Source: Octopus vulgaris (lineage: Eukaryota). From it: 64,000 bases of DNA. The stretch covers positions 58,466,001 through 58,530,000 of the forward strand of contig OX597827.1 in NCBI GenBank assembly GCA_951406725.2, written 5' to 3'. Positions 1,234 through 43,740 of this stretch are shown here, piece after piece (the stretch's first letter is position 1; each line of letters opens with the position of its first letter). Position numbers and translations under genes: made by a program. Under the pieces are notes generated by a model, which searched no databases, was not told the DNA's origin, and was given only the letters and a program-made list of their open reading frames with translations.

Positions 1234-1270
<37 letters not shown>

Positions 1271-3978: not shown

Positions 3979-4010
<32 letters not shown>

Positions 4011-13522: not shown

Positions 13523-13565
13523 ATAACACTAGTACTTTCATGCATTATGCAATCATCAGGTTTAT
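13523..13565 (-). ncRNA. Minimal type I hammerhead ribozyme-like motif (intact core)
   Basis: ATAAAC CTGATGA T TGCA-TAA-TGCA T GAA AGTACT A GTGTTAT. Confidence 0.6.
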
Positions 13566-14308
13566 ACAGTAATAGTAGTGACAGTCATGTCTCACAATTG
13601 ATAACTGTAGTGAAATGATGAAATTTGTATTTTAAGTACCAATTGTTAGGCTCCAAGCAGATTGAATCTTACAAATAGTATTTTGACTGATCAGTATGTG
13701 GCTTAGAAGTCATGTTTTGGTGAAACCTGTTATGTGTGAGTGTATGTGTACATACATACATACAGACAGAGAGACAGACATACACACACACACACACACA
13801 CACACAGACACATATATCTATATATCTTTTGCCTCTCATCTCCTAGCAGAAAATTGCCTTCACCTTCACCCCAGAGTTTGTAGTCTTGCAAACAGCAAGA
13901 TGGCCTCACTAGTGCTAACAGCATGAAAAATGTGCCCTGTACATCAGTGTTTCTCAACGTTTTTACTCTTGCGTAACCCTTAAAATAAATTACATGTGTC
14001 AAGGAACCCCTGCACAAAAAAAATTATATTCCATATCTTTCTCATAGTTTTTTCATTGTAGGTCACATGGTAAATATCATATATATATTCACACACTTAT
14101 TGCAGTGGTCCTTCAGTTTTTCTAAGCCCTGTAAAAGAATTCAGAAGGTTGGGCTTCCAACCAGGCCTTTTGCAATACCCCTGAAACCAGAAACTTTTAA
14201 ATACTCCCTTGCATGCATGCATACATACATGCATACATACATACATGCATGCATACATACATACATACATACATACAGACAGACAGACAGACTACATGTA
14301 TGGCATAC

Positions 14309-14451
14309 CTGTAAGTTGGCGAGAACAGATTTAATTTGCTCCAATACCGAAGTTTCAGTATTGTTCAATAATTCTGATAAGCTGTCAGAACTATCTTGTT
14401 TGCCAATCTGTTTCGGAGCAGCTAAATTCTGACGAACATCTGTTAAGCAGT
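14309..14451 (-). CDS. VPS51: VPS51 exon 12
   Basis: (D)[47 protein letters not shown]; cag/gtatg; phase 1-0. Confidence 0.93.
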
Positions 14452-14903
14452 CTGAAATTTGAAGATGATAATAATGAGGATAGTATTCAATAAAAGGGAG
14501 ACGGATGTTAACAATTAAATTTACTCCAGTATATTACTGGTATTTATTTCATCAATATACATACACACATAATTAAGTAAATGACAAAGAAACAGGAAAT
14601 TATGCAAGAACTCTATTAGCTTACAGATGTTTCTGCCATAAGATGTAATGCACTCATTTTGGACCTCTAGGAAGCTATAAGCTGATGTAGAAGCACTCAG
14701 TTTTGAGTGCAATACATAATTTCCTGTTCCTCTGTCATTTCTCTAATTTTATATTATGCTCTATATCCAACCAGTGCTTATTCTGAAGCTTATTTATATT
14801 GAATTCTAAAACTAGGTTATTAGTATTGCTATGCTCAAGTGAAACATTATATGTAAAAGAAATAGGGAGATTACATGAAAAAGGGAATAAAGTGTATACA
14901 AAC

Positions 14904-14983
14904 CTAAAAAGTGCTGTTTCAACATTTGCAAGTAGTAAGCTCCTCTTTCTCTGGCAGCCTTTGACACAATTTCAGTACCAGCT
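14904..14983 (-). CDS. VPS51: VPS51 exon 11
   Basis: AGTEIVSKAARERGAYYLQMLKQHFL; tag/gtttg; phase 2-1. Confidence 0.88.
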
Positions 14984-15188
14984 CTAAAGATGGTGTTAAA
15001 CAGAAGGGTTGTCAATTTAAAAGCAACTAACATTGGACAATGTAAAAGTAACAAACAATTATTACTTCTTAACTTATGTGTGTGTCTTTGTGTTCTTTTG
15101 TGCTAGTGTTCATGTTTGTGTCTGCACATGTATTTTTCTCCTCACCAGGCTATTGTCCAAAAAATATCGAAAGGTGTTCTTTCAATGT

Positions 15189-15440
15189 GGAGGCGCGTGG
15201 TTTAGTGGTTAGGGTGTCAGCATCAGGATCGTAAGATTGTGGCTTCGATTCCTGGACTGGGCGACACGTTGTGTTCTTGAGCAAAACACTTCATTTCACG
15301 TTGCTCCAGTCCACTCAGCTGGCAAAAATGAGTAATGCTGCGATGGACTGGTGTCCCGTCCAGCTGGGGAACACATACACTATAGAAACTGAGAAACCGG
15401 GCCCATGAGCCTGGCTAGACCTTAAAAAGGGCATATTTAT
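15189..15440 (+). mobile_element. tRNA-type SINE family B (Meta-domain-like). Other copies or relatives at about 21152-21410(+), 10452-10781(-), 32764-33062(+), 44060-44370(+), 46689-46870(+)
   Basis: GGAGGCGCGTGGTTTAGTGGTTAGG..TTCGATTCC head, then TTGTGTTCTTGAGCAAAACACTT..CCACTCAGCTG..AAAATGAGTA. The 15189 and 21152 copies are highly similar. Confidence 0.8.
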
Positions 15441-15899
15441 TTTTAAAAATTTATTCTTTCAATGAATCTGCTTTACTTTTCACAGTCTTTTTATTCATTT
15501 GTTCTTCGTCACAGTCTGATGTTCTCCAGAACCATTTAAGTTTGAGACCATTTAGAAGATAGCTCTTCTAGTAATGAAGGTACATTGCCTAGTGGTTAGT
15601 GTGATGCACTTACTATTGCAAGATAATGGTTTCAATTCCCATACTGGGTGAGCACTGTGTTTTTGAGCAAAATAGTTCATTCCACTTTGCTCTGCAATCG
15701 CAATATCTGACATGTGGTACACCATGCACAGTGAGTTAGCTAATGTACAGCACAAACATTTGATCATGATAAACAAATCATTTGTGCAGGTTGTTCAGGA
15801 AGAAATTGCAGAACCCTCACCTGTTATGACAGTAGCGTCCACAATACTCTGGCAATAATACTCTATTCATATTTCCACAGTTCTCATATAGAAACTTAC

Positions 15900-16000
15900 C
15901 GTGAAAAGTCAGTGTCAGGCAAGAGTTTGTTCATAGCTTGAAGTCTCCGATGAAAACGATCCAAAGCACGTACAAGAATAGTATTATCACCTGTTTCTTT
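15900..16000 (-). CDS. VPS51: VPS51 exon 10
   Basis: KETGDNTILVRALDRFHRRLQAMNKLLPDTDFS(R), containing the conserved LVRALDRFHRRL; cag/gtaag. Confidence 0.95.
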
Positions 16001-17233
16001 CTGAAAGGATTCAAAAGGAATTTACATAAGCATATTTGTTTATATATATATAAAATACAAAATGGGACAAGAACGCAAAACATCCGGACAACTAGGTGAT
16101 ACAAAAAGGAACAACAAAACATCAAGATAGACAATACAAAAGAACAAGGATGGGTCATTCGAAGCTTTCTATCCTCAGTCAAGAACCGGATCATCCTCGC
16201 ACTTTCGACTGATTAACCTTGAGTTTGCTCCAATCTGGCCAACCCCATGGAGAAACAATGCTAAGAGCATTAGATTCCTTGGAAGAAAGCATTGAATGTA
16301 CATGAAAACAAGGACAGAAAAACAGACGATGTTACACAAATATAAATACAAAATACAATAAAAATAATAATAACCAAACATAACAGGTGTCTTTCGAGTG
16401 GGGATGAATTATATATATATATAAAGAAAGAGAAAGACATCAAAAAATTATACAGCAGGACGACAAAGGAACATATGGAAAAATTGTACAGAAGATGTGG
16501 ACATGCTCTTCCCTCATCAGTTATCATCCAAAAATCATAATAATTTTGTGCCTTTTAGTGACAAATTGTACATTTTGGTGGCATCAGCAGCAAAGAGCAG
16601 TTGGAGAATAAAGGAGTGAACATAGAGGATAGTGACAAAAATAAACAAATGATAAATAATGACAGAATAAGAGGAGACATAATGGAAAATGATACAGGTA
16701 ACTGGTACATATAAAATATACATATACAAATAAAGGCCTTACAGTTATGAGACAACATTGAGACAAAATGTGTATAATGCTTATCATCATCATATGTACA
16801 AGTAAGAAGATGAAGAATAAATTTAGCATATCTTCATAATTAGTTACAATTAATTTGATATCATACTGTTTCTAACACCAATGCACATAAATGATTCAAT
16901 GTGGAAAGTTACACAATATCTACAGTTGATTACACTGGAGTGACACTTCATCAGACTAGCATTAGGACATATGATCTTAAGCATGGCTGTGTGGTTAAGG
17001 AGATCATTTGCCAACCACATGGTTTCAGGTTCAGTCCTACTAAAAGTCACTGGGAAAATGTATTCTACTATAGATAAGTTAAACTAGGGTCAAAATGCAC
17101 ATTGTTAAATGATATATTGCAGAACAAAATCAAGATAAATTTTTTATCTTAAACTCTTAAACAAACATCTTTGGTGAATCACATCAGAGAAAAAATAACT
17201 GAGAAATCTAATTATATATTAAAATGGACTCAC

Positions 17234-17333
17234 CTCTAAGAGTACTCTCTTGTGTACACAGTCAAAGTACCTTTCCATGAGAGAGTTTACAAAATTCACC
17301 AACTTTTTCAATGCTATTGCATCTAAATTCTCA
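17234..17333 (-). CDS. VPS51: VPS51 exon 9
   Basis: ENLDAIALKKLVNFVNSLMERYFDCVHKRVLLE; cag/gtgag; phase 2-0. Confidence 0.92.
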
Positions 17334-18700
17334 CTGAAATTTGGAAATACAATATTAGACTTTAAGTTTCTCTTAAGACTAATTTGCTTAACTGATCGCA
17401 TAGAATTACCATTTAATAGTTTTTAGATTGTACACATTACACATCTTTTCACAACACTACATATAGCTTATAACATGAACAAGAGTGAAAATAGGTGGAA
17501 AACAAGATTATATGCTTATTTAAAAATAAAATCATGTCAAGCTCAAACACACAAAGCTGTCCACAAAACCCAAGTGTAAAATTGGTGGTTGTTTTTAGCA
17601 TTATACTCAAGAAGACCCATATACCACAGCAGAATTGATACCGGAGGTGGAGCCACATAGAAGCACTGGTGTTGGCACCATGTTAAAAGCATACATAGAA
17701 ACACACTGGGCACTCTGTAAAGTGGTTGGCATTAGGAAGGGCATCCAGCTGTAGAAACCACGTCAGAATAGACAATGGGGCCTGGTGCTGCTCCTGGCCT
17801 TACAAGCATGGAAAACAAACATTAAATGATAATGATGATAATAAAAATGTCTTCAAATAAACTTTATGGGTTCTCATTCCTTTGTCTAACTCAGGCATTG
17901 GCAATTTTTTAAGAGAAGTTGGCTGCATGAGAGATGATTTATCAACAGTTGGGCCACGCTACTAAAAATAAATTCAAGGTAATTTTTCATTTAGAAAATC
18001 AGTGGGGCCACAGTTTGCCTGTGACTGGTCTAATTAGTATGGTTTTTTAGTACATTAGTCAAAGGAGGAAGAGCTGTGACCAAAATCTTTGAAGCTCATC
18101 CCAAATTAGTGAGACTGGTGTGATAGATATTCAGTTGAGCATCTGTATTTCTGCATTTGTACAAAAAAATTGAAAATTGGAGTTCTGATGAAACCAAATT
18201 GAGAGAAGTGTTTAGTATAAAATCTGGGATACAAGAAAAGATGCAGTTGTGTTAGGTGAGCCTGAGGTAGGGTATTAAGCAGAAGATAGTTCAGAGCAGT
18301 ATAGCCTGTTGTAGTAGCTGTAGATGAGGCAAAACTCTTTCATATTGAAATGATTCACACAATATCCAGTATCTATTCCCATGAAATAACCTTTGTTTGA
18401 ATATTTTCTCTTGCCAGAAAAATATTCTACTTTATTACAAGTTTATTTCACACTTTTCTATTTTTAACATTTGCATTTCACTTACAAAGATTTTGCAAGA
18501 ACTTTTTTTTTATATATAAAGACAACTATGTTGATGTGTTATTGGGCAATGAGTTCTGGTTGAAAAGTGCCATTTTGCTACCAGTCAATGTACATAGAAG
18601 AGGAAAATATGGAAAGGAGTGGGGTCAAAGGTGATGTGCTATACATGACTGAGATGAAAAAAATGGTAATAAAAACAATGAAGATGACAATACAACTTAC

Positions 18701-18804
18701 TCTTCTTGAAGTCTGTTTAAGAACATGTCATTGTAAGATGCTATCACAAGACAGATGTTACTGAGGAATGTATTACAGCCATGGTCCACAAATTCAAGGA
18801 CATC
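18701..18804 (-). CDS. VPS51: VPS51 exon 8
   Basis: DVLEFVDHGCNTFLSNICLVIASYNDMFLNRLQE; tag/gtaag; phase 0-2. Confidence 0.93.
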
Positions 18805-18865
18805 CTATTAAAAACAAAGAGAGACAGAATGAACTAAACAGAACAGGAGGGAACGTGGATGGAAG

Positions 18866-18907
18866 AGTTGCTGAAGATGTCACAGATGTGTAACGAAAGA
18901 TTTCCAG
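18866..18907 (+). ncRNA. Minimal type I hammerhead-like motif (intact core, weak helix I)
   Basis: TTG CTGAAGA T GTCACA-GATG-TGTAAC GAA AGATTT C CAG. Confidence 0.45.
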
Positions 18908-19670
18908 ACAATGGACATAAGATAAAATAAGAACAGTAATAAACAAGTGAAGAACAAATAAACAGTGCATATTTTATTTGGCAAGAAAAAAAAAAGAAAA
19001 TTGATCATCCTGAAATATAACAATTTTTATGCTTGATCAATAATTTTGATATTTGTTTTGTTTCCTTAAAAGTAATTTATAATATGAGTTTGCTAAATTC
19101 AGTTACTATGAAGAATGCAGAATCTAACATTTCGAACCATGTCCTTGTGAGCATAACAGACATTTAAAACTCTTAAACATATTTCGGATGTTAAGCTTTA
19201 CACTCTCTGATCACCTTTTATGATGGCCAAATGACTACAACATCACAAACCAGATTTTCCAAAATCTAAGCTTTCTCTTAAGAGTCAGAAAATACTTAAG
19301 ATCTGAACAGGAACATGAACACCTTGTTAATATACTGCTTATGTACAAGGGAGAGTGCAGCTGTTAATGAGTGACAAACCTTCGTTTGCCAAGTTTTTAC
19401 AACCACTATCCATCACTGTACTGAATGCATGCAACAGAATGATCCCTGCTAAAGGCACCCAAGGACCAGATGGTGGTGTTAAACTAAATGATAGATAAAG
19501 TCTATCCTAAAAAAAACAGAGGACACAAACAGCTGGAGTAAATACTGCAAAGCATCAGGTTTGATGCTTTAACAGTTCTACTGATCTACCACCCTGGATT
19601 GGTACTTTATTTGATCAATCCTAAAAGGATAAAAGTCAAAGCTGACCTCAGTGGAATTTCCTCACACAAA

Positions 19671-19896
19671 TTAATCCTTTTGTTAACACATTTCTGTTGA
19701 AATACACTGCCTTTGTTTCAGTTAATACTGAAAATAATGGCAAATTCATTGAAATAATTGTCATTATTAATCTGCTGTTTGGAACATAAAATGGACGTAA
19801 AATTTTGATTGAAAGTCTTAATTAGAATTATTTTAGAACAGAATTTGGGTCATAGAACTGAGGGAAGGCTGAGGCAGGTTGGTATCAAAAGGGTTA
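19671..19896. mobile_element. piggyBac-like MITE, family 1 (relatives near 12725-12913, 29588-30030, 41340-41508)
   Basis: Ends TTAATCCTTTTGTTAAC ... GGTATCAAAAGGGTTA form an imperfect terminal inverted repeat with TTAA context; the body recurs in the window. Confidence 0.55.
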
Positions 19897-20313
19897 CTCT
19901 TTTACTTGTTTCAGTCATTTGACTGCAGCCATGCTGGAGCACTGCCTTTTAGTTGAGCAAATTGACCCCAGGACTTATTCTTTGGAAGCCTAGTACTTAT
20001 TCTATCGGTCCCTTTTGCCGAACCGCTAAGTTACGGTGATGTAAGCACACCACCATCAGTTGTCAAGCGATGTTGGGGAGGGGAGGGACAAACACAGACA
20101 CACAAACATATACACACACACACATACATATATTTATATATATACATATATACGACGGGCTTCTTTTCAGTTTCCATCCACCAAATCCAGTCACAAGGGT
20201 TTGGTTGGCCCGAGGCTATAGTAGAAGACACTTGCTAATGGTGCCATGCAGTGGGAATGAACCCGGAACCATGTGGTTCGTAAACAAGCTACTTACCACA
20301 CAGCCACTCCTGC
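19897..20313 (-). mobile_element. tRNA-type SINE family C (CORE-like, resembles octopus OR-type SINEs) with internal microsatellite. Other copies at about 23436-23992(-), 30202-30592(+), 32370-32700(-), 44565-44910(+), 52119-52450(-), 53455-53810(-)
   Basis: Head GCAGGAGTGGCTGTGTGGTAAG..GGTTC..CCCACTGC, then GCAAGTGTCTTCTACTATAGCC, an internal (TA/TG)n tract, and tail ..ATGACTGAAACAAGTAAAA. Confidence 0.8.
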
Positions 20314-21518
20314 GTTAAATACTAATGTATATAATCCTTCCTCCATAGGTACAAGGCCTGAAATTTTTGGGGAAGGGAATAGTCAATTACCCCATGCCTT
20401 GACTGGTACTTATTTCTTTGACCCCAAAAGGATGAAAGGCAAAGTCAACCTCAGAAGAATTTAAACTCAGAATGTGAAGATGGGTGAAATGCCTCTAAGC
20501 ATTTTGTCTGATGTGAAATTGATTCTGCCAGCTTGCTGCCCTAATAGTAATATAAATGCTAATTTGTGCACCTTGAGGGATGGAAAAGAAGCCCCTTCGA
20601 AGGGCAGAGGAACTTGTTAGGGTCAACAACATCATCATCATTTAACGTCCGCTTTCCATGCAAGCATGGGTTGGACGATTTGACTAAGGTCTGGCAAACC
20701 AGATGACTGCATCAGACTCCAATCTGATCTGACAGAGTTTCTATGGCTGGATGCCCTTCCTAATGCCAACCACTCCGAGAGTGTAGTGGGTGCTTTTACG
20801 TGCCACCGGCACAAGGGCCAGTCAGGTGGTACTGGCAGTGGCCACGCTCAAATGGTGCTTTTTATGTGCCACCTGCACAGGATCTTCATTTGGTGAAACT
20901 GCACAACATAGTCTGTTTGGAAGAGGCTCTTCAGCCAATGGTCAGTCTAGGGTCAACCAATCCAGTCAGCAAATTATTGCCAACTGGAAGAACTGACAAT
21001 TCATCAACCCACATTAACTACTTGAAAACACTATAGAGTTCTGAAACTTCAGAGTATCACCAATTGAAGCTCAATGACTAGTAGTAACATAAAAAAGAGA
21101 GAGAACACAATATTGTTGTTTTGAATGTAAGTATTTGTAATCAAATATCGTGGAGGCGTGTGGCTTAGTGGTTAGGGTGTCAGCATCATGATCATAAGAT
21201 TGTGGTTTCGATTCCTGGACCGGGCGACGCGTTGTGTTGTGTTCTTGAGCAAAACACTTCATTTCACGTTGCTACAGTCCACTCAGCTGGCAAAAATGAG
21301 TAACGCTGCAATGGACTAGCATCCCATCCAGCTGGGGAACACATACGCCATAGAAACCAGGAAACCGGGCCCATAAGCCTGGTTAGGCTTGAAAAGGGCG
21401 CATTTATTTTTTATATTTGTAATCAAATATACATGTGAAAATAGAAATAACAACAAAACAAGTGGATATGTAGGTATGTACGAAAGTTGATGTGTAGAAT
21501 TGTGATAAAATCTATTAC

Positions 21519-21642
21519 TATTGGAGCCATCATGTAGGCTTGAGCAGGTCTTTCTACTTCTTCTATCAGTGGAATTACTCCGGATTGTAATTGTATCTGC
21601 CTTTCCAGTTCAGCCAAATCTTCATCAATCTTTTGACGGGCA
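21519..21642 (-). CDS. VPS51: VPS51 exon 7
   Basis: ARQKIDEDLAELERQIQLQSGVIPLIEEVERPAQAYMMAPI; tag acceptor. The donor ATA|gtaata is weak but gives the required phase 0. Confidence 0.8.
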
Positions 21643-22681
21643 CTAGAAATATAGAACACGCCAGAAAATAATAAAAATATACAAAATGACATTTTTTTTA
21701 CACATTAATTTAATATCTACTCAGTTATCTGTCTTACATACATATACACTGAATAGGAAATGGACCTCAATGAAGCAGTAACAAGTTTCTTGTTACTGCT
21801 TCACTCACTTGTATCTCCAGATAAAGTTATCCAGCATTAGAATCAATGCTGTGTTACAAGAGTGTGTGTGTCTGTGTGTGTGAGAGGTAGAAGAAGGTAA
21901 GAGAGAATGACAAAATGAAGGAAAGAATAAGAGGGGGAAAAAACAGAAAGGGAAGAAAGAAAGAAAAATGAAAAAGAAATTCAGAGAAAGAATGAGAAAA
22001 AAAGACAAAGTAAAAAACAGACAAACAAAGAAAAAAATGATATGAAAAGAAATGAAAAACAGACAGAGAAAGAATTAAAGCAAAGGAAAGACAGAAAATG
22101 TGAGAATGATTTCCATTTCAAAACTACAATTCATACTCACAAAATCTCACATCATTTCTAGCATGGCTAATGTTGGATTTAAGCGTAAATTGAACAAGTT
22201 TACACTTAGGACCCTATTAACAACAGGGGTTTTATAATAATTAGAAGATATGTTTTCAATTTTTATGAGATGTTCAAGGTGCAGGCATGGCAGTGTGGTT
22301 ACAATGGTTGCTTCCCAACCATGTGGTCTTGGGTTCAGTTCCACTGCATGACTCACTTCTGTCTGATCCATGCAATCAAGGAAAAGTGGACATTAAATAA
22401 TGATGATGTCATAGCGTAAATTTCTAAGAGGGGTCTTCCATGCTTTATGTAGCTTTGGATCACTAGCATGACTAGACTGTGTGCTGTCTGGAGTAGCCCT
22501 TCCATTTGCCACCCCTCCCCAACCCCACAAAAAACACATATTGCCTACAGCAGACCCCACCTTTAAAAGTGCTGCTCGGGATGGACCGCCACCCTCCACC
22601 CCACTATGCTAGTGCTTAGGACATTACCAAGTTTAAATCTAGCATTAACTAAGGCAATACAATTTCAGTGTTTTATCAATG

Positions 22682-23064
22682 AACTAGCAGTATTGCCCAG
22701 CGTTGCTCGGGTTTGTTTCGACCCTTTAGAATTGGAATTTTTGAAAAGTAAAAATTTTGCATTATGTAGCTTGTTATTCTCTTTAAGTGAACATTTTTCT
22801 GGTTGAAATACACCAAAAAATGGCGACACAGCAGTAAAAAAATTGGGATTTTCATAGAAAAAAAGCACCCTTTTGATGTAAATAATTTTTGGTCTTAACA
22901 TGGTCCGATTTGTATTTTATCTTCTACGGAATGAAGAGCAAGCCTTCTTCTATCATACTCTCAATTTTGGTCAACTTGCCCCGCAGGGTCTCAGAGGAGA
23001 TAGTGTTAGTTGAAAGCTACCAAACCTTCCATACACAGACAACTTCAGCTTTATATATATAGAC
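22682..23064 (+). mobile_element. Non-autonomous Helitron/Helentron-like element
   Basis: Starts AACTAG..GCCCAGCGTTGCTCGGG (short 5' hairpin) and ends CAGAC..CTTTATATATATAGA, typical ends for such elements. Confidence 0.5.
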
Positions 23065-23178
23065 TAGACTTATATCAACAGAATGTATTTGATGGCAATG
23101 AAGTGATGCATGTTCACTCTCAGGTCTAGGTATTCAGATACTGATTGTTAGAAATAACAGATATTTGATTCAACTTAC

Positions 23179-23267
23179 TGGGACAGAAATTCATCACACA
23201 ACAGTTCTGCAGGTTCTTTTAATTCCAGGAGTAAATCAACACACTCAGCCAGTTCTTTAGGACTTGA
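23179..23267 (-). CDS. VPS51: VPS51 exon 6
   Basis: SSPKELAECVDLLLELKEPAELLCDEFLS(H); cag/gtaag; phase 0-2. Confidence 0.93.
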
Positions 23268-23636
23268 CTGAAAAGAATATATACATATAATGTAAGTAAG
23301 TATACATAAATATATTCAGCATACAGGATAACGATAATTTCTAATATAGGTATAAAGCCCAAGTTTACAAAGGAGATGGGTGAAATTGATTTAAGCAACC
23401 CCCAACAAATATTCATTTATTTTTTTCATTTCATTTATTTACTTGTTTCAGTCATTTGACCCCGACCATGCCAGAGCACTGCTTTTAGACAAATTGACTC
23501 CAGGACTTATACTTTGTAAGCCTAGTACTTATTCTATTGCTCTCTTTAGCTGAACTGGTAAGTTACAGGGATGTAAACACACCAACATTGGTTGTCAAGC
23601 GATGGTGGGGGGACAAGTACAAACACACAAAAATAT

Positions 23637-23645
23637 ATACATATC

Positions 23646-23698
<53 letters not shown>

Positions 23699-23735
23699 AT
23701 ATATATATATATATATGTATGTATATATATATATG

Positions 23736-23778
<43 letters not shown>

Positions 23779-23783
23779 GTATG

Positions 23784-23820
<37 letters not shown>

Positions 23821-23830
23821 GTATATATAT
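23637..23830. repeat. Compound (TG)n/(TA)n/(TATG)n microsatellite inside a family C SINE
   Basis: Read directly from the sequence. Confidence 0.97.
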
Positions 23831-24439
23831 ACGATGGGCTTCTTTCAGTTTCTGCTTACCAAATCCACTCACAAGGCTTTGATCAGCCTGCAACTATAGT
23901 AGAAGACATTTGTTCAAGATGCCACGCAGTGGAACTGAACCTGGAACTATGTCGTTGGGAAGCAAGCTTCTTACCACACAGCCACGCTGCACCTATACTT
24001 TATATATTATACTGAATCCAAAAATGTGAAGAGCAAAGATGAACTTAAAGTAAATGGTCGATACTTTAAACCATCTGGCATTACCATTTCTGCTATACCA
24101 CAACCCTAGGCATTTAAAAAAATATTTTTGTTTTATTGTAATTTCCCAGGAGGAAGGGAGGTGAGGTTGATTTCTAAATTTCACACAATGGAATCAATTT
24201 GCAGGAAGAATATAGTAGGTTTAACAAACTGTTGGCTAATTGTGTGAAGATGCTGATCAAATCAGGAAAACTGTGTTTCTATTAGTTATTCAAACCACTG
24301 ATACTGTCAGTTAATAGTAATCTTTGACAGAAGTGTCACTAGTTTTTGATGGAATTTGAACTCTGGATATATAGAGGTGGAATAGATACCACCTGTCTGA
24401 TACTCTAACAATTCTAACAGCTCTACTTCTCTGGACTGG

Positions 24440-24845
24440 TGTCCTGTTTTACCAAGCCCATCCCCCCCTCCAAAGAAAGGTCCAGTCCTTGTTGTGGTGT
24501 GGTGGCTTGTTTGCTTCAATGACACACTATGCCAGTGGAATGCAAGCTCCTAGGAGGGCCTGGCATGCTAGACAGGTCAACGGACAGAGGCCAGATTAAT
24601 ATGGACCACCTCTTTGCAAAGGTAAAAGTGAATTTGCATAAGGTCAACATCCCAATCTAGAAAGAAAGCTAAGTTACAGAACCGTCAATGACAATTCAAA
24701 ACCAACAAGACCTGGGAGAGGAAGACCTTCTCAGGTAGTGCCCCCACACTAAGAGAGTGGCTCTGAAGATGGCCCAGAGCCAAGAATAGTGGAGAAAAGT
24801 CATCAATGGCCTATACTATATAAGGAGAAAAGGGCTTAAGTAAGG
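24440..24845 (+). mobile_element. Old, internally deleted RTE-like element
   Basis: The 3' part reads like a decayed MAQ..W.KVINGL RTE terminus and ends GGCTTAAGTAAG. Confidence 0.35.
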
Positions 24846-25320
24846 AAGAAAGAATAAAAGTTGAAGTTGACCGTAGCAGGATTTGAACTCAGAACATAAA
24901 GCACCACGGCTAAATACTTGACATTTTGTCTTGTGTTCAAACAATTCTGCCAATCCACCACTCTAATATCCAACATAGACAGAAGGATAGAAATTTGGAG
25001 GAAAGGGCTTAATCAAATCAATCCCAGAATTTGACTGGTGATTTATTTTATCAACAATGGAAAGATCAAGTCAAAATAATCTCCTAACAGGATCTGAACT
25101 CTGACCATAAAGGGACACAACTACAAACTAAAGCATTTTTGTCTATCATACTGGCAATTCTGACATCTACTGCCCAAATAACAATAATAATAATGTACAC
25201 ATATACATAAAAACCCAAACATTATGTCTTGTTAAGTGTAAGATCACTCCTATATTAAAAACAATCTTATGATGTAAACTGGTTTTAGCTGTTATGACAA
25301 AAGATTTCCAATGTATTTAC

Positions 25321-25453
25321 ATCTTTCTCTTGAAATTTCTCCTTCAGTTTTTGGCAAAGTTCATCTACAATTACTAGACAGTCCTCATGAATTCGTTTAA
25401 AGCTTGGCATATGATTGTATTGGATAAGTACTTTCTCAGCTTTAGTGTAATAT
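25321..25453 (-). CDS. VPS51: VPS51 exon 5
   Basis: YYTKAEKVLIQYNHMPSFKRIHEDCLVIVDELCQKLKEKFQEKD; cag/gtaaa; phase 2-0. Confidence 0.92.
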
Positions 25454-26496
25454 CTGGTTGTATAAAGAGAAAAAGAGAAAAAAATAGTGACTTTGATTCA
25501 TTATTGAGTATTTGGGTATGCCTTTATTTTAAATGGGTTTTTTTCTTAGCAACAATATAATTATATTCTTTCAATGAGGCATAAGGTGAAATTTTATAGT
25601 GAAAGTTATAAAGAAGTTGAAGTAACAGTAGTATATCATTGTGAGATAAAAACAGAAAAAAATATAGAGATATTTAGTTCAGCCCCACCATTTCAAACAA
25701 CACAACTGCAGTAATATTAGTATCAAATTTTCACACAAGGCCAGTAATTTCAGGGAAAGGGCAAAGTCAATTACATCATCCCCAGTGACCAAGTGATACT
25801 TATTTTATCGACCTTGAAAAGATGAAAGGCAAAGTCAACCTCAGTGGAATTTAAACTCAGGATGTAAAGGTGGCTGAAATGCTGCTAAGCATTATGCCTG
25901 GCGTGTTAACGATTTTGCCAGTTCACAGCCTTATCCACAACTGCAGTAATTTTGTTACAAAATATAATACAGAAAAATGCAGCTCAAAAGTTACCATTTT
26001 AAGACTGTTGTTAAGATCCACAGCAAATCACAGACAGTCCTCGCCTTATTTATGGAAAACAACTTCTAGGCTGGATTCCAAGAATGGCAGGAATGCTGGG
26101 TCTGGTATATTGTGGTGCAAGGTGACTATTTCAAAAGAGATGATGTTAAAACTTAGGTAAATAAGTTATTTTTTTTATTAAACATAACTAGTCCAGGAAC
26201 CTTTTGATACCACCTCATACTTAAATGTAAGAAGTAGCGTGTGAGCATAGCTCATTTAAAAGTTAACTTTTTTTGGCAAGAGTTTAATGAAAATTTTCCC
26301 ATCAGTTAAACTATATAGAAAGGGTGATCAGTTATAAAATAATACTTTGAGAAAAAACACAGATCCAATCAATTTTAGGGTTTAAGCAAAGGAGAAAAAT
26401 ATTTTTAAAATTGTAGAAGGGTCATTAAAACAAAGACAATCCTAGAATAATTATATTTTTTCCTTCTTTACATTCAGCTATAGCAAAGTTTCTTAC

Positions 26497-30691: not shown

Positions 30692-30847
30692 TTTTTTTAG
30701 TAGGGCATGAACACCAGCAAGCTTTGTTATCTGCTGTCGTTGATCTTGAAGGGTGTCACTAATCTTGGCACTGAATTCTGTTATTGAAGCCATGTTGGTT
30801 GCCAGTAAATCCATCTCATCTTCCATTTTCTTAAAATCGTTTTTCAT
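30692..30847 (-). CDS. VPS51: VPS51 exon 3
   Basis: [19 protein letters not shown]...[10 protein letters not shown]; cag/gtatg boundaries; 156 nt, phase 0-0. Confidence 0.95.
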
Positions 30848-31988
30848 CTGAAATAAAGATAAATAAATTGTATGTGGGATGAATTAGAAGTGGTGAAATG
30901 TTATGCATAGTGTTGTGATGAGAAATGGTTACCGAGAATTATTTTTATTCAACACAAACAATGAACTACAGTATTTAAAGAACATTTATTTCAAAAGGCT
31001 GGCTGTCAACCTTCAACCAAAATATGCCATAAGTTATCAGGACCAGATATTGACTTCTTGTCCTCCACAGTACAAGCGTTAAGGTTGCAACCAATGGTGA
31101 AAAGGATTTGGCCTGCCAGGGTCCTGTGCTGGTGCCATGAAAAAAAGGCACCAGTTAAAAGCACCCAGCACACACTGTATAGTGGTTGGCATTAGGAAGG
31201 GCATCCAGCTGTACAAGCCAAACAAAATCAGACTGGAGCCTGGTGCAGCCCTTTGGCTTGCCAGCTCTGGTCAAACTGTCCAACCCATGTCAGCATTTGT
31301 TTATAAAAACATTTGTAACATCAATTAAATTGTGTGAGTGTGTGTATGTATACACACACACAATTGACTGCCATGAAGTTCCTGTCTACCAAATTTTATC
31401 CACAAGTTACTGTTCAAGCTTAGGCTGTGGGTCAAAAACATTCACCCAAGGTGCCATGCAATGGGGTACTTCTTAACCTAACAGTCATACTTGCACCTTA
31501 ACAATACAAACATTATATCCCTCTACATTGCTCCTATCTTTGCAAGTTTTCATTATCACATTTGAGTTCATATAAGAAGCATTATTTTTCAAAAACAAAA
31601 AAGTCTCCAAAAGATCATTCCAGGTCCTATATGCAAAGTATCCCTCCCACATAAGCTTTAATGCATTAAAATCCCCTTTTTTTGCCCAAATATGCACTAC
31701 TGAAATTAGGGTGCATCTAATATGTCCATATGTTTTTTATGCCAACCTATATGGTAGTTATGGATAATATCCATTTTTCTCAGACACAAGGATAAACAAA
31801 AAAAAAAAAAAAACCCAGAGAAAATAAATGGAAAATTTCATAAAGAACCAGGGAGATTCATATAACTTTACGGAAATAAAAGCTAAAACAATAAGTGAAT
31901 AAAAAATATATATCACCAACATCAATGCCAACAGATAAGAGCTTACAAGATGACTTCACAACCAAATCAGTTTTAAGAGACTTCTTAC

Positions 31989-32275
31989 CTTTCTGATTGT
32001 ATCAGTAGCACTTATAAACTTGTTATAATTTTCATACACCAGGGTCTGCATTTCACTGTCCAGAGCACGGATTTGACGGACTACATCAGTCTCTCTGTCC
32101 ATGAGCTCAGTCAGAGACTTCTCTCGGATAAGCTTGTTAAGGAATATATCATGCTTAAAATGGGCACCGTCAATGTCACATGGGTCGACGGTTGTCATAC
32201 CTGGTTTCTCTTCGTCTATTCCGTAATACATTTTCAACATTCCTCTGCTCTTACGGCGCATATCATCCGTCTCAT
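31989..32275 (-). CDS. VPS51: VPS51 exon 2 (N-terminal Vps51 domain)
   Basis: cag acceptor and gtaag donor. Encodes [18 protein letters not shown]...[30 protein letters not shown], the recognisable Vps51 signature. Confidence 0.97.
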
Positions 32276-33624
32276 CTGTCAATAAAATATACATATATTT
32301 TTTAAACAGTTTTAATTCCATTTATATGTATGTTAAAAGAGAATGTTTGCTATGGTGTATCATTTATTCTTCTATTCGTTTCAGTCATTGGGTTGCAGTC
32401 AAATTGGGCAACACTCCAAAGGAAGGGTTTAGTTGATCAAATTGGCCCCAGTAATTGCTTTAAATCTTCTATCAGTCTCTTTGAGCTGAATCACTAAGTT
32501 ATGGAGATATAAAGGAACCACCAACAGTTGTAAAGCAGTGAGAGACACATATACACACACAAGCTTCTAAATAAAAATCATTCACAAGACAGTGGTCAAA
32601 CTAGGGTTATAGTAGAAGACATTTGTCCAAGGTGCCACACAGTGGGACTGAACTTGAAACCACATGGTTGTGAAGAAAACTTCTTAACCACACAGCCATG
32701 GCTGTCTGTTTATTTGTTGCGTGCTGAATTCCTATTTATACCACATTAACCTTTTTGCCTTGTGGAGGCACATGGCCTAGTGGTTAGAGCAGCGGACTCG
32801 TGGTCGAGGTATCACAGGTTTGAATCTCAGACCGGGTGATGTGTGTGTGTATGAGCGAAACACCTAAGCTCCATGCGGCTCCGGCAGAAGGTAATGGCAA
32901 ACTTCTGCTGACTCTTTCGCCACAACTTTCTTTCACTCTTTCCTCCTGCATCTTGCAACTCACCTGCGACGGACCAGCGTCCTATCCAGGTGGGGAACCT
33001 ATATGCCAAGGAAACCGGGAAACCGGCCCTTATGAGCCAGGCATGGCTCAAGAAGGAACAAACAAACCCATTTGCCTTAATGTTGAAATACTGCAATGCT
33101 TTTTATTTTCTTTTTTATTTCCACTTTAGCATTCAGATTACTCTGTCAAATGTAATATTTATTTCTTCACATCATCATTTTGAATAAATAATGTATTATC
33201 TTGTGATTTTGAGATTTTGATAATGTGGTTGTTTATTTTCTTACAATGACATTGTAGGGCAGGTGTGATAGGCTAAGTCTGTCCGGTAGAATATTTGGGC
33301 CAGATATGACCAAATTTTCATACAGCCATAGGTCAGATAAATTACTGAACCAATTATTTTTCTTCTTCAGTTCGATGTTCTTCTTATCACCAACCACTCA
33401 ACCATGAATTAAAATGAAACCCATTTCCACACGAAGAATGTGTCTAGGGCACAACATAACGACTGTAGTAGTTAGGTGTAAACCTGTGATCTGTGTGGTC
33501 AGCCATCTATGAATCATACTTAATGTAAATACCTAATTAAAGGGCAATTTACTGCAGTGTTCATTCAGAGATAACATTTCATATCGATGTGGTTTGCTTA
33601 ACCCTTTAGCATTGAAACTGTCTC

Positions 33625-37504: not shown

Positions 37505-37746
37505 CTTTTTAATCATAAGGCTCCTTACGATATAAAATTTACAAACAAAATTAGTGAAAATATTTAATAACAACTAAAGCACATTTAAAAATATTTATTA
37601 ATTTTCGTAACAACGAAATTAAAATACTATCATTAATTAATGAAATTAATTGACATCAATAAACTTTACAATAACACATAATCTTTCTAAGCGGTTCATA
37701 TCATTCGCCATTTGTGACATCAGTGAAAAGGAAAGTTCTGTCATCG
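37499..37746. promoter_or_regulatory. Bidirectional promoter region between VPS51 and DCTN1, with two YY1-like motifs
   Basis: VPS51 ATG at 37504 (-) and a plus-strand donor CG|gtaagc at 37746. CGCCATCTT at 37499-37507 overlaps the ATG, and CGCCATTT lies at 37706-37713. CpG is visibly more frequent from about 36.4 to 39.2 kb than in the introns. Confidence 0.7.
37690..37746 (+). other. DCTN1: Probable non-coding first exon of DCTN1 (start approximate)
   Basis: Strong donor TCG|gtaagc followed by T-rich intron-like sequence, directly opposite the VPS51 start; no ATG in the exon. Confidence 0.55.
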
Positions 37747-38031
37747 GTAAGCCTTTTTTTTATTTAGATTTGCTCTGCTTTTCATTCTTTTCCTTTTGTA
37801 ATATATTTACATATCCAAAGATATGAAGTCTATTTTCTTAAAAACTAATGCCTATTTGCATATAAATAGTTATAGACAGACTATTTGCAGACGGTAAGTT
37901 TATAAATAAATAAGGTTGACGCAACAGATACCTTCCATCTATGCAGGCTTTAGTTAATTACGGTTAACACATACACCCGATTTATATACGTTTGTACATA
38001 TTTATTGAAACCACATTTTTTTTTATTCATC

Positions 38032-38239
38032 ATGTCTGCTCCCCAAAAAGCACCCGATGAATCTTTAGATGCTGCTCCTTCACAGATTCCCGTACATAAA
38101 AGCCCTCGACCAAAAACTGGTTCCTTTATAGCGAGGCGATGTCTTTCTTTATCTGCCCTACCCACGTATAAACGATCCCCGTCTGCTACATTTCGATCCC
38201 CAACTTCTCAAGAAAAAGTAAGATTGCACAATTTCCGAG
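38032..38239 (+). CDS. DCTN1: Candidate alternative first coding exon of DCTN1 (N-terminal extension with SxIP motif)
   Basis: ATG at 38032, 69 open codons plus G, donor GAG|gtgagc (phase 1). Joins the acceptor at 42938 in frame (G+CC ATT AAA ATT CCG AAG ATG). Confidence 0.55.
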
Positions 38240-41030
38240 GTGAGCTGAATTTCCCGAACCGTTGATCCGTCGTTATTATCATTCGATTTTCATCCCCCAT
38301 ACTTGCAGCATATATGACTCAGGATAATTGTAACGATTTAATTCTTTCGTTTTAACCCCATTCGTATTCAAGATACATTATAAAGAATATAAATTAATCC
38401 CGATAACTGACAGGTCATTTATTCTATCGACACCAAAAAGAGAAAAAGCAAAGTTGGCCCCTGCTTGAATTGAACTCGGAACGTAGAAGGCCGTAACAAA
38501 ATACTACTCCTGGAATTTATAAAAATCTCGACACATCCTCCCCTAATTTTTGCTTTGATTTCTCATTTCGACTAACTTCTCACTAAAATTTAGTCGAATT
38601 TGCATTTTAGAATATGACTAATTAAACGCCTTTAATTAACCCCCTTCCTCCCTATTTTGATGCTATGCATTCTAAAAATTTGACTTTTATTGCTTCATCT
38701 CAACATATGCGTTTACTATGTCACCCTGTTATTATTTTTAATTTTTCTTGTTTCTTATCTTAAACGTAGAGTCTATTAGTACTATCAAATTTGATATTTC
38801 GGCAACGCAGAATTGCTACCAACTTTCATTCATCAATTCTCGATGAGCGACCTTTACATGGTCACTCAACAGACAAGAAATATTAGTCAGACCGTCAAAT
38901 ATTGTTTTGAAAAGAAAACACTTTAGATAACGTACTCCGATATGCTGTTGTGGTGGGGTGTGGGTGTGAAAAAAATAAGACAGGCTGGTCATAAACGGAA
39001 CGACAAGGTTGATTTGGTGGGTAAACAACATACTACTCGGGGCATGAGTACTATCAAAGCGAAAACGTGTGAGCATGATCTGCTAGAAATAGCAGCCAAA
39101 CCTCCTTTATATCTTACAATAAGGACGCATTAGAAAATTTAGCCTTAGATACACCGCTTGAAAAAGCCCACTCATATAAAATTCCGCGATTAGTTTCGAC
39201 CTGAGGCTAAACAACTCGTACATTTTATAACTACTTATTTTCATAGCTATTTATAGATTTGAACAGTATTTTATGGTTAAAAAAAAATCATTATTTAAAA
39301 TATCGATTTTTTTTTTTCCGATTAGGGATGAGGTCAACTTTGTAGAGGACGAAGTGTGATACATTGAATTAAAGTAATATTATTCTGGTTGCTTAATAAC
39401 CCTGTTGAGAGTTGAACTCTGGTTTGAGGTTCTGAATAATTAAATAATTTACTGTAAAACGTCCAGTCTGAACCCTCTCCCCTCACTCTCCACCTAAAAA
39501 AAAACCCAAAAAAAACCTTGAGGCAATATCACTGTCCTACTAAGATTGACGTGTTACAAATTTATTATAGATTTCTTATTTGACACATAAGACACCAATA
39601 TTTATTTCTAGATGCATAGAAGGAAATTGTATGAAGTTTATACTTATTTGTATTAAATGGCCACAATCCAAAACTGATTATCAAAGTGATAAAATTAATT
39701 TATTTGAAAGTTAATTCCATGTTTTTAGTGTCAGGGGAGAAAGGAGGGTGGTTATATTTCATTTCATTCATTAATATATCTTTGTCATCTAGATGAGAAA
39801 GTCTGGCCTTTTCAAGGCCACTTGGAGTGGGAATGTAAGAGGTTGTCTTCAACTGGAGATCAGGTCTGAATGCTTGTGGCATTGGTGTTTAACTAAAGCA
39901 TAATGAACTCTGAAAAAAAAAAAAAACTAAGAAAAAGCTGAATAATCTTGAATAGAATAAGCATGTAACTTGAACAGTTTTTTTTTTAATAAAATATTTA
40001 TTTAACATAAATCATTTTTAATGCATTATGTAGATGAGCAGAATCAATGGCAACAGACAAAATGCCTAATGGTGATTAGTTGTGTACCTTTGCTTTGCCA
40101 CAGTAAATAAAATGAGTAACAATCAAACATTGATTTCAAATTTTGGCACAAGGCCAGCAATTTCCAGAGAGAGAGAGAGGATAAGTCAATTAAATCAATC
40201 CCAGTACTCAACTGGTACTTATTTTATCAATCCCAAAGCATTTTGCCCACCATACTAATGATTTATTCATTGTAAAACTCCTCTCTTAATTTAATCAATT
40301 TCTCATTGCGATCAGTACTTACTTTCCAACTTGTATGGATGATAAAGAAAGCATATTTTTTATGAATAAGCTACATGTGACCATATAGTCTGTTAATCTT
40401 GATGATAAAACCCTTCTGCTTGAAGATTTGAAGGAAACCCAAATTATGGCCACATACCAAGTGTGAGACATGGGGTATGTGGATACACTGCAAATAGATT
40501 GTTAGCAAAGACAAAACTACATGGGTGCATCAGATCTACAACATGGTAGATTAATACATTCCACTGACAGGCTGATCACAATATAGTTCTGAGAAGGTAA
40601 AAAATCAGAATATAACAATCATGAACACTGTAATATAATGTTTGGAGGAAAGAAATATTAAGCATCTACAAGATTAGCAACAATCATCATACCACTTTGA
40701 ACAAGTCTTTGTAATCAGTGAGTATGTGGGACCTCAATGAAGAAGGGTGGAGCATTCTTTAATCAATTGATTGCGAGTAAGGATACTGTATTTTGTCATG
40801 CAATCTTAATATACTATCAAGAATATATTACAGGTTTATAAGTCAATACTGTGCCTCACTTGTAGATTATGGTTGCATAACCAAATACAGTATCCTAACC
40901 AGCTATTAATACGTACATACAAGTTACCAGGAATATGTTTATGGAAAATTGGTATACCCAGTAATGTTACACCACTATATTTGGTGGCTATTTAAGCAGT
41001 GTGTTTGCAGATGGTTAATGGGTCGGATGT

Positions 41031-41075
41031 GATGCTGATGAAGGAGCAAGAGCTCCTGAAATATGCATATACACC
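41031..41075 (+). ncRNA. Minimal type I hammerhead-like motif (intact core)
   Basis: GATG CTGATGA AGGAGC-AAGA-GCTCCT GAA ATATGCATAT A CACC. Confidence 0.65.
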
Positions 41076-41890
41076 TATTATGTATTTTGCTGGCTTCATT
41101 CGTGTTTACATTAGACATATTTCTATACAAAACACTGTAACAAATCGGTGCTCCTTCTAATTTCTATAGAAAATCTGCAAAGATAACATTAACTCTTTAA
41201 CCTTTTAGCATTCGGATTACTCAAATGTAATGCTTATTTATTCAGTCTTTTAAAGACATCATGTATTATCGCATAGCTTTGAGATTTCAATGATGTGGTT
41301 GTTTATTTGTAGAATGACATAGTGAGAGTGGTTCTTTCAATTAACTTTAAATATAACAAAGAATTTAGTAAAATAACTTAGTTGTCATTAAGCTGGTGTT
41401 AGGAACATAAATTGTGGCTAAGGTTTGGTGGAAGATTTTAATTCAAAACTTATGCAAACAAGGCATTTGTACTACAGAGCCAAGCCGGGTTGATATTGAA
41501 AGGGTTAAACATAACTAGTCTGGGACCCTTTTGATAACACCTTGTATTCATGATCATACTCTTTCATTCATTATCCAACATTCAATAGATATATATACGC
41601 AATCACACATATACACAAATATATATTTGTGAGAGAGAGAGATTTTCTATTCACTTTCAGTCTGTCTTTGATTCCACTACACTACTTGTGTACTCATAGA
41701 TCATGAATACTACATTGTATGGGGTTTCTGCCTTCTTTTCTGCATATTGAACATGGCCATTTCCCTGATGTTATCACTTCCTTGTCATCATTCCTACATA
41801 ATAAAGTAGTACAGTTTTATATTTAAGAGATGAGGAATTATGTATATTATTTACATTTGACAGATTTTTGTCCTCATCTTGTTTGTTGTT

Positions 41891-41936
41891 AACACAACAT
41901 TTTGGCTGATATGCCCTCCAGCCTTCATCAGGTGTC
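41891..41936 (-). ncRNA. Decayed minimal hammerhead-like motif in a Penelope-like repeat (about 41810-41960)
   Basis: GACAC CTGATGA A GGCTG-(10 nt)-CAGCC AAAA TG T T GTGTT. GAAA is mutated to AAAA. Confidence 0.5.
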
Positions 41937-42937
41937 TTGGGGAAATTTCAAACCTGGGTTGGTTCTCGGAACCATGTGGTTGGTAAGCAAGCTACTTACC
42001 ACACAGCCACTCCTATGCCTGGAAATGACTAATTATGTTAATATGTATACTAAAGGTTTTGCATTTTGAATATGGCATGCTTTCATCTGATCTACAAATG
42101 CAATGAACTCTCTACATTGCACTGGTTGATGATGAATACTAGTGGTTGAAATGGGGATTGTCTGAAGGATGTTTAGGGCAATGTTACTCAACATAATGTG
42201 TAGTTCGGAAATCAAGAAGTCTCTCCAGGTTGAATTACTACTTCTCCATATCGGGAGGTACTACAGACATGTGATAAGAATATTGCAGGAAAGAATTTCA
42301 AGACTGATTCTTCAAGCAGAGCCAACTGGTAGGGTGTAGACCTAGAATAAGATGGTTGGATAATATTTATAGTCTCAGTTGGCCACACTTTGGGAATCCC
42401 GCCAGAGAGTGTAATGATAGTTGCTTCTAATAGGACCCAGTGGTGGAGGTGCCTGAAGACTCCACTCTCATGACCCTCCCAGTAATAGTGGGCTGAGAAA
42501 ATGGATGGATGAATTTGAGATAAGGTGGCAGCCTGCATGACATTACAAAAAAATTTTCTCACTTGAGATGTAGGGTTTGAAGCATGTAGTTCAGTTTTAA
42601 AGATATTCAGGAATTTATTATGGGGCGATGTTGGCACCCTGACGAAGTCAAAAGATTACCCAGTAGCTCCCTTTTCAGTTTGAATATTACCCTATTAAAT
42701 ATTACGCTAGAGAAACTGGGAAACCAACCCTATGCTCTTTGTGGAGTCATGTGGACTAACTGAATATTAGTGCATTTTGAAGATTCTGATTTGGTATCAT
42801 ACACTTTTGTTCAATATCTACACGGGCTGACTTTGTACTTCTGCTCCCTTGAGAAAGGCTAAATAAAAACTGCTTGTATTATCTAATTTAGTAAGTAAAT
42901 TATTGCATTTGAGATTTTGTCTTTGTTTATATTGCAG

Positions 42938-43051
42938 CCATTAAAATTCCGAAGATGGGTGATCGGATTAAAGTTGGTACTCGAGTGGAAGTGATTGGTA
43001 AAGGAGTTTTTGGTCAAGTGGCGTACATTGGCACTACACTTTTTTCAACTG
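42938..43051 (+). CDS. DCTN1: DCTN1 (dynactin p150Glued) exon, N-half of CAP-Gly; ATG at 42955
   Basis: MGDRIKVGTRVEVIGKGVFGQVAYIGTTLFST(G) matches the p150Glued CAP-Gly start; ttgcag acceptor, gtgagt donor. Confidence 0.93.
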
Positions 43052-43689
43052 GTGAGTTATTCTGTTCTTTGTCAAATTTATTTTTAATCTTTTATGAATG
43101 GAGACTAAAGTATATACTTTTTAAAATTCTAACTATAAAATTTGTTGCCCAAATTATATAATTTACACCTCCACCAAAGGCTACTAGTATTTTAACTCCT
43201 TAGCTTTCAGATTAATCTGTCAAATGTAATAATTATTTATTCAGAATATCTTGAATTAATCATGCATTATGTTGTAGCTTCAAGATTTCAATGACGTGAT
43301 TGCTTATTCTTAGAATAACATGGTTGGGTAGTGTGAGAGACCAGATCTAGCCAGTGTGAACATAAAACAAGCAGAATATATGGGCTGGATATAGCTGGTT
43401 TAAATGCTCAAGCACTTGAGGCTAAAATATTTAACCTGCAACCAATGTTTCATAGGTATTTTGTACCACTTTCAAGTAAATAAATAAATATATAGCAATA
43501 AGTAATGGTTTTCCTCAGAGTTTTGGTAGCCTGGCTCAAGCTTTTGGAATTACGGAGATGTACTTACATAGCAAGTGACCTGATCTGAGATTGTGTGCTG
43601 CATCAAAAGCAGTTGCAGCGTGGAAGGTTTTATAAACCATTTAAGAAACACACAAAACCCTTTAGATTCACTTCAACACTTAAATTTAA

Positions 43690-43740
43690 TTTGTCAAAAT
43701 ATTTTCATCACTTTGAGACTACGACCTGTTCACTGACAAA
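43690..43740 (-). ncRNA. Hammerhead-like motif with compensated G3:C8 core
   Basis: TTTGTCA GTGAACA G GTCGT-AGTCTCAAA-GTGAT GAA AATATT T TGACAAA. Confidence 0.5.

What the first reader, a model, noticed from the sequence alone, without database searches (positions are those of the whole stretch)
13523..43740. A set of five unrelated minimal hammerhead-like motifs, each with its own palindromic helix III
Seen: five loci share the layout helix I - core - helix II - GAAA - palindrome - H - helix I', with unrelated helix sequences. The helix III segments are AGTACT (13.5 kb), AGATTT, one change from AGATCT (18.9 kb), ATATGCATAT (41.0 kb), ATGT, one change from ACGT (41.9 kb) and AATATT (43.7 kb). 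Established: Penelope-like retroelements carry minimal type I hammerheads whose palindromic helix III is thought to form by dimerisation. Inference: several hammerhead-bearing families have colonised this genome. Distinct palindromes could act as a family-specific pairing code, so solitary intronic copies stay silent unless a same-family partner RNA is present.
Basis: partly seen in the sequence, partly recalled or inferred. Interest (0 to 1): 0.7.

Follow-up and report, generated by a model that had tools for sequence, protein, structure and literature searches.

The report
Penelope-element hammerheads, no palindrome code
The five motifs are damaged single copies of five abundant jumping-gene families in an octopus genome, each carrying a small hammerhead-shaped RNA of a known kind that likely cuts only as a pair; unrelated families reuse the same palindromes, so these are unlikely to be a private code, but one family keeps two paired core letters swapped in thousands of copies.

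Summary
All five motifs are in the sequence and far above chance (strict descriptor: 17 hits in 600 kb of unselected genome, 0.15 in shuffles). Each is one decayed copy of a dispersed repeat family. Three families (13.5, 18.9, 43.7 kb) lie 3' of GIY-YIG ORFs of Penelope-like elements; 41.0 kb is a ~380-bp tandem, retrozyme-like unit; 41.9 kb is a SINE-like element with a tRNA-like head. They are the published minimal, dimer-type hammerheads. The pairing code is not supported. Unrelated families share ACGT, ACATGT and ACCGGT, at about the rate chance gives. In a dimer helix I also forms between partners and carries most of the predicted specificity. A full-length element holds two copies in cis. 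The 18.9 and 43.7 kb motifs come from related elements. Three of five copies are antisense to their host genes. The unusual part is the 43.7 kb family: a G3-C8 swapped core in 96 of the first 100 listed of 4,630 structurally intact copies, which I found in print only as a laboratory mutant. This scan had already reported both the swapped core and the failure of the code idea on other DNA. No cleavage was tested.

The parts
13523..13566 (-). Minimal type I hammerhead, family F1 (C3-G8 core 13559-13553, helix III AGTACT, site after 13530); helix I mismatch at 13527; sense in a VPS51 intron
13488..13724 (-). 5'-truncated 3' end (pLTR) of a Penelope-like element, F1; relatives have a GIY-YIG ORF upstream
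18867..18909 (+). Minimal hammerhead, family F2 (core 18871-18877, helix III AGATTT with G.U pairs, site after 18904); helix II pair broken at 18892; antisense to VPS51
18815..19028 (+). pLTR stub of a Penelope-like element with Cys-rich linker and GIY-YIG; its 3' tail runs into the ORF start
41031..41075 (+). Hammerhead with 10-nt palindromic helix III, family F3 (core 41035-41041, site after 41071); helix I mismatch at 41032; sense in intron 1 of the CAP-Gly gene
40766..41192 (+). About one unit of a 360-390 bp head-to-tail repeat (retrozyme-like); no ORF found beside it
41891..41936 (-). Minimal hammerhead, family F4 (core 41931-41925, helix III ACGT in intact copies); this copy has G12 to A; antisense to host gene
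41804..41960 (-). 3' part of a SINE-like element whose longer copies carry a tRNA-like head and an (AAT)n spacer
43690..43740 (-). Minimal hammerhead with swapped G3-C8 core, family F5 (core 43733-43727, 7-bp helix I, helix III AATATT, site after 43697); helix II decayed here; antisense to host gene
43548..43758 (-). ~205-nt pLTR stub with fixed ends, from a Penelope-like element with GIY-YIG ORF
3549..32276 (-). Host gene VPS51, coding exons matched (context)
37700..50410 (+). Host gene with CAP-Gly domain (likely dynactin p150; name recalled), exons ending 37745, 42937-43050, 50294-50410 (context; start approximate)

Best explanation
The five motifs are decayed single copies of five dispersed repeat families, three of them 3' ends (pLTRs) of Penelope-like retroelements, each carrying a minimal type I hammerhead that likely cleaves only as a pair formed between two copies in the element's own tandem transcript. 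In such a dimer the palindrome of copy A pairs with that of copy B, and helix I forms between the 5' strand of A and the 3' strand of B (follows from the double-hammerhead geometry). Selection therefore needs helix III to be self-complementary, not unique; lack of cross-pairing between families is predicted to be a by-product of divergence, mostly in helix I. The 41.0 kb (tandem) and 41.9 kb (tRNA-like head) families are inferred non-autonomous users of the same machinery. The window copies are predicted inactive. The 43.7 kb lineage fixed a compensatory G3-C8 core that is predicted to keep partial activity.
For: Repeat families with 371-4131 first-look candidates each; fixed 3' and ragged 5' ends; inverted head-to-head partners in 20, 12, 2, 6, 2 of 30 loci for F4, F5, F1, F2, F3, as described for PLEs (PMC8557442, passages). 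ORF link: F1 7 of 30 loci, two of them overlapping; F2 3 of 30 upstream on the same strand plus longer copies; F5 14 of 30 loci chosen by its GIY-YIG ORF, seed included. RVT_1 and GIY-YIG Pfam hits in the F1 sister ORF. Full-length F2 sister L196: 1310-aa frame with the hammerhead in both pLTRs. Palindrome kept through change: AGTACT vs AGTATACT in sister lineages, ACATGT vs ACGCGT within one family; 19 of 21 hits are palindromic when no palindrome is required. Shared palindromes and helix I dominance. Published: min-HHR inactive as monomer, weakly active as dimer (PMC4209133, parts 1-2 of 4 read); C3G/G8C partly restores cleavage in a PLE hammerhead (PMC11167929, parts 1-2 of 4).
Against: No cleavage assay. 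No autonomous partner found for F3 or F4. Among the five window families homodimers are predicted much more stable than heterodimers, which a code would also predict. The young intact F2 sister has C at position 9 and an imperfect palindrome (AGAACT), and the young F1 sister has U4C, so some active elements may not need an efficient ribozyme; in the anole PLE cleavage needed protein and was dispensable for insertion in vitro. Energies are rough sums of helix terms. The census is enriched for families I searched for.
Confidence: 0.8

Rival explanations
1. Palindromes are a selected family-specific pairing code that gates cleavage of solitary copies on the presence of a same-family RNA in trans.
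For: The five window families do differ in helix III, and predicted heterodimers among them are weak (sum -4.6 kcal/mol or weaker, against -13 to -25 for homodimers). Sister lineages F2, F5 and the young L196 family differ in helix III.
Against: Unrelated families share ACGT, ACATGT, ACCGGT, ACGCGT; 3 colliding pairs among about 9 lineages with perfect 6-mers (grouped by eye) against 2.25 expected at random. Sister subfamilies share AGTACT. AGAACT pairs better with AGTACT than with itself. Two copies are available in cis.
Confidence: 0.07
2. The motifs are structural relics or protein-binding folds; cleavage is marginal or lost in these lineages and the fold serves packaging or template choice.
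For: Core deviations fixed in young elements (A9C, U4C, G3-C8). In the anole PLE, catalytic mutants did not affect insertion and no reads ended at the site (PMC11167929).
Against: Positions 3 and 8 stay paired in every lineage seen (C-G, U-A, G-C), as catalysis requires; helices show compensatory changes between sisters.
Confidence: 0.11
3. Chance matches in AT-rich intronic DNA.
For: Only 1 of 5 window copies passes the strict descriptor; Rfam finds none.
Against: 17 against 0.15 in shuffles; 7-25 of 30 copies per family pass the strict descriptor; 4,630 intact F5 matches against 0 for the reversed pattern.
Confidence: 0.02

Closest known systems
Minimal hammerheads (min-HHR) in pLTRs of metazoan Penelope-like elements (Cervera and De la Pena 2014, PMC4209133; parts 1-2 of 4 read)
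   Same: Type I layout, short helix I, extra nucleotide between 9 and 10.1 (F2, F4, F5), palindromic 15.2-16.2/loop 3, many families per genome, mostly single truncated copies, inverted pairs 100-700 bp apart, U3-A8 variant present.
   Different: F5 has G3-C8, not reported in the parts read; F1 has a U.U pair and F3 an A-U pair at 10.1-11.1; young sisters carry A9C or U4C.
Small dimer-cleaving PLE hammerhead variants (Lunse, Weinberg, Breaker 2016; not held, seen only as a reference and in the review PMC6765202, passages)
   Same: Short palindromic stem III, PLE association, cleavage as dimers.
   Different: Could not check whether it lists G3-C8 or discusses family specificity.
Non-LTR retrozymes (PMC7229834, passages; bioRxiv 10.64898/2026.07.22.740005, parts 1-2 of 5)
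   Same: F3 is a 360-390 bp head-to-tail unit with one type I hammerhead per unit, mostly left as monomers.
   Different: Only degraded 1.5- to 2-mers seen; no circular RNA shown; 10-nt palindrome.
Schistosome SINE-like elements with promoter followed by a hammerhead (review PMC6765202, figure legend passage)
   Same: F4 has a tRNA-like head with A- and B-box-like motifs, then a hammerhead.
   Different: F4 is dispersed, has a minimal hammerhead and PLE-type inverted insertions; tRNA origin not confirmed by ARAGORN or Rfam.

Membership tests
PLE minimal hammerhead | Core C3-U-G-A-N-G8-A, GAAA and UH with helices I and II | tested here: met
   Met for F1-F4 in family majorities; 7-25 of 30 copies pass a strict descriptor. 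F5 meets it only with the 3-8 pair swapped.
PLE minimal hammerhead | Canonical C3-G8 (or published U3-A8) pair in F5 | tested here: not met
   G3-C8 in 29 of 29 aligned copies and 96 of first 100 listed, 0 C3-G8; pairing is kept.
PLE minimal hammerhead | Palindromic, unstable helix III | tested here: met
   F2 through G.U pairs.
PLE minimal hammerhead | Located in pLTR of an RT + GIY-YIG element (F1, F2, F5) | tested here: met
   for F2 and F5 only the linker/GIY-YIG end was seen directly, RT in sisters.
PLE minimal hammerhead | Located in pLTR of an RT + GIY-YIG element (F3, F4) | tested here: inconclusive
   tblastn of six PLE proteins found no ORF beside 30 loci each; insertion pattern is PLE-like.
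PLE minimal hammerhead | Cleaves as a dimer, not as a monomer | not testable with these tools
   Needs in vitro assay.
Neptune/Nematis-type PLE | Cys-rich linker between RT and C-terminal GIY-YIG | tested here: met
   Seen in translations; definition from PMC8557442 passage. No tree with reference PLEs, so clade not assigned further.
Non-LTR retrozyme (F3) | Head-to-tail units of 150-400 bp with one hammerhead each | tested here: met
   Older tandem copy 360-395 bp upstream in 8 of 9 loci examined, short matches in three.
Non-LTR retrozyme (F3) | Expressed as linear and circular monomers | not testable with these tools
   Only assembled contigs available.
tRNA-derived SINE (F4) | tRNA-derived head with pol III boxes | tested here: inconclusive
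   Box-like motifs by eye; 35 of 52 B-box matches are followed by the F4 tail; ARAGORN 0 of 10 loci, no Rfam tRNA hit.
Family-specific palindrome code | Each co-resident family has its own palindrome | tested here: not met

The most novel reading that the evidence does not exclude
The 43.7 kb family is a naturally fixed, working G3-C8 hammerhead: one Penelope lineage reversed the catalytic 3-8 pair relative to its sisters and then amplified to thousands of intact copies, so this genome holds all three of C-G, U-A and G-C cores, and standard CUGANGA searches miss a whole class of natural ribozymes. Helix I plus helix III together then keep co-resident families from cutting each other.
Probability: 0.5. 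Interest if true: 0.5.

Novelty: new variant of a known kind. Interest (0 to 1): 0.32.

Why it matters
As a set, these are ordinary members of a described class and the proposed code does not hold, so the headline is low. The value is in the natural variants: a G3-C8 core fixed in a large family, beside A9C and U4C cores in young intact elements, gives ready material to ask whether PLE hammerheads need to cleave at all, which is still open (PMC8557442, PMC11167929). It also shows that ribozyme descriptors should allow any 3-8 pair.

Tried and rejected
Rfam scans found no hammerhead model in the window or in 13 loci nor in a tandem family with canonical features, so Rfam silence is uninformative. 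ARAGORN and Rfam did not confirm the F4 head as tRNA. Pfam on short broken F2 frames gave nothing useful; the 1310-aa ORF had no Pfam hit and the 687-aa one a weak RVT_1 hit; no PDB match. A second G3-C8-like hit in L325 lacked helix I and was rejected as likely chance. No autonomous partner was found for F3 or F4. Run search: no RNA holder listed; laid runs are contigs guessed to be RNA, so no start, end, strand or level can be read; one 171-nt contig bridges the 41.0 kb site uncut, but may be DNA or pre-mRNA and is not used as evidence. The F3 representative had a decayed helix I; a better copy gives -12.0. The alignment used wrong coordinates for L243 and L252 and was not used for them. Look-ups of earlier findings by sequence returned nothing. 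Lunse et al. 2016 is not held; supplements of the papers were not opened and may list cephalopod or G3-C8 motifs.
Full report
Observation. A descriptor written after seeing them finds 3 of 5 in the window against 0.04-0.09 in 300 local dinucleotide shuffles; its strict form finds 1 against 0.01. In 60 stretches of 10 kb taken at round coordinates it finds 17 strict hits, 7 from one tandem locus, against 0.15 in 20 shuffles; with no palindrome required it finds 21 against 1.35, and 19 of the 21 are palindromic within one mismatch. Rfam reports no hammerhead model.

Setting. The genome is an octopus by VPS51 similarity (95% to the closest listed protein). VPS51 runs on the minus strand over 3.5-32 kb (spliced joins). 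A CAP-Gly gene runs on the plus strand with GT..AG joins 37745-42937 and 43050-50294. The 13.5 and 41.0 kb motifs are sense in introns; 18.9, 41.9 and 43.7 kb are antisense and would not be in the host pre-mRNA.

Families. Each motif is one copy of a dispersed family (first-look candidates 371, 2830, 1155, 2377, 4131). Of the 30 best loci per family, 11, 10, 7, 9 and 25 pass the strict descriptor. Ends are fixed 3' and ragged 5', and inverted partial partners lie within 800 nt in 2, 6, 2, 20 and 12 of 30, the insertion pattern described for PLEs (PMC8557442, passages). Every window copy is damaged relative to its family: helix I mismatches at 13.5 and 41.0 kb, a broken helix II pair at 18.9 kb, G12 to A at 41.9 kb, CpG decay of helix II at 43.7 kb. 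AGATTT is the F2 majority (22 of 29) and is self-complementary through G.U pairs.

Parents. F1: GIY-YIG remnants lie upstream on the same strand in 7 of 30 loci, two of which overlap; a sister family with RVT_1 and GIY-YIG hits carries the same palindrome with a compensatory change in helix I. F2: longer copies run into a Cys-rich linker and GIY-YIG; its young sister L196 has a 1310-aa frame with the hammerhead in both pLTRs. F5: 14 of 30 loci chosen by a GIY-YIG ORF, seed included, have F5 within 1.5 kb downstream. F2 and F5 parents form one clade (100/100 in an 18-row tree without outside references) and share the helix II scaffold, so the five are not all unrelated. F3 is a 360-395 bp head-to-tail unit, like non-LTR retrozymes (PMC7229834, passages). 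F4 has a tRNA-like head and (AAT)n spacer, not confirmed as tRNA. No ORF was found beside F3 or F4.

Mechanism. Published: min-HHRs are inactive alone and weakly active as dimers; many families per genome and the palindromic helix III are already described (PMC4209133; PMC3088659, passages). Inferred: two copies in a tandem transcript pair through helix III, and helix I forms across partners. The palindrome must be self-complementary, which the data bear out: AGTACT becomes AGTATACT in sisters and ACATGT and ACGCGT occur in one family.

The code. All fetched DNA (1.94 Mb, enriched for searched families) gave 114 distinct strict hits in 24 clusters. Unrelated clusters share ACGT, ACATGT, ACCGGT and ACGCGT. 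About 9 lineages with perfect 6-mers, grouped by eye, show 3 colliding pairs against 2.25 expected at random. One search for hammerhead heterodimers in retroelements listed nothing relevant.

The variant. F5 has G3-C8 in 29 of 29 aligned copies. A pattern leaving positions 3 and 8 free matches 4,630 places, 0 for the reversed control; 96 of the first 100 listed are G3-C8 and none C3-G8, across several loop II subfamilies. Sister lineages have C3-G8. The natural covariation I found in print is U3-A8; G3-C8 appears as a laboratory mutant that partly restores cleavage in a PLE hammerhead (PMC11167929; PMC3884650, passage). Searches for a natural case listed two papers, one read as passages and one seen only as a listing; Lunse et al. 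2016 could not be read, so novelty is provisional. Against a simple catalytic role: young intact sisters carry A9C or U4C, and in the anole element cleavage needed protein and was dispensable for insertion in vitro.

Earlier notes of this scan, looked up after my reading was formed, report the G3-C8 family and the failure of the code idea on other DNA; they are not counted as evidence.

Verdict. Observation confirmed; Penelope link shown for three of five; dimer mechanism inferred from published work; palindrome code not supported; one family is a probable natural core variant. Interest 0.32.

Noticed in passing
L196:2100-7000; L206:5900-6600: Young, full-length Penelope-like family (open frames to 1312 aa, many near-identical copies) whose hammerhead has C at position 9 and an imperfect palindrome AGAACT.
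   Followed up: partly
L247:4770-4870; L250; L253: Young F1 sister subfamily with U4C core; L243/L252 sisters have an extra core nucleotide and the longer palindrome AGTATACT.
   Followed up: partly
window 41804-41960 (-), window ~3900-4090 (-), L008, L014, L275: F4 is a SINE-like element: tRNA-like head, (AAT)n spacer, hammerhead tail, inserted head-to-head in 20 of 30 loci; possibly a SINE moved by a Penelope-like element. Two paper searches listed nothing on this by title or abstract start.
   Followed up: partly
L357, L367, L368, L370, L373-L375, L385; window 43758: F5 stubs begin at a fixed point that in longer copies follows a branch-point-like, pyrimidine-rich stretch ending in CAG; either an intron 3' splice site or a start site. 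Fixed ends fit internal initiation of reverse transcription (PMC11167929).
   Followed up: partly
L266:3080-4600; L275; L207: Intact tandem retrozyme-like arrays with 353-362 bp units, one with a C3-G8 and one with a U3-A8 core.
   Followed up: no
L223-L244, L199, L201, L212, L254: Several U3-A8 core families, one in the 3' UTR of a young 781-aa RT/GIY-YIG family.
   Followed up: partly
window 37500-37750: VPS51 (-) and the CAP-Gly gene (+) appear to start head-to-head within about 250 bp; a further possible first exon lies at 38033-38217.
   Followed up: no
window 4687-4788: Near-perfect ~100-bp inverted repeat (MITE-like) in a VPS51 intron.
   Followed up: no
L236, L237, L248, L251, L265: GIY-YIG PLE families with no canonical hammerhead seen within 900 nt after the ORF.
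   Followed up: no
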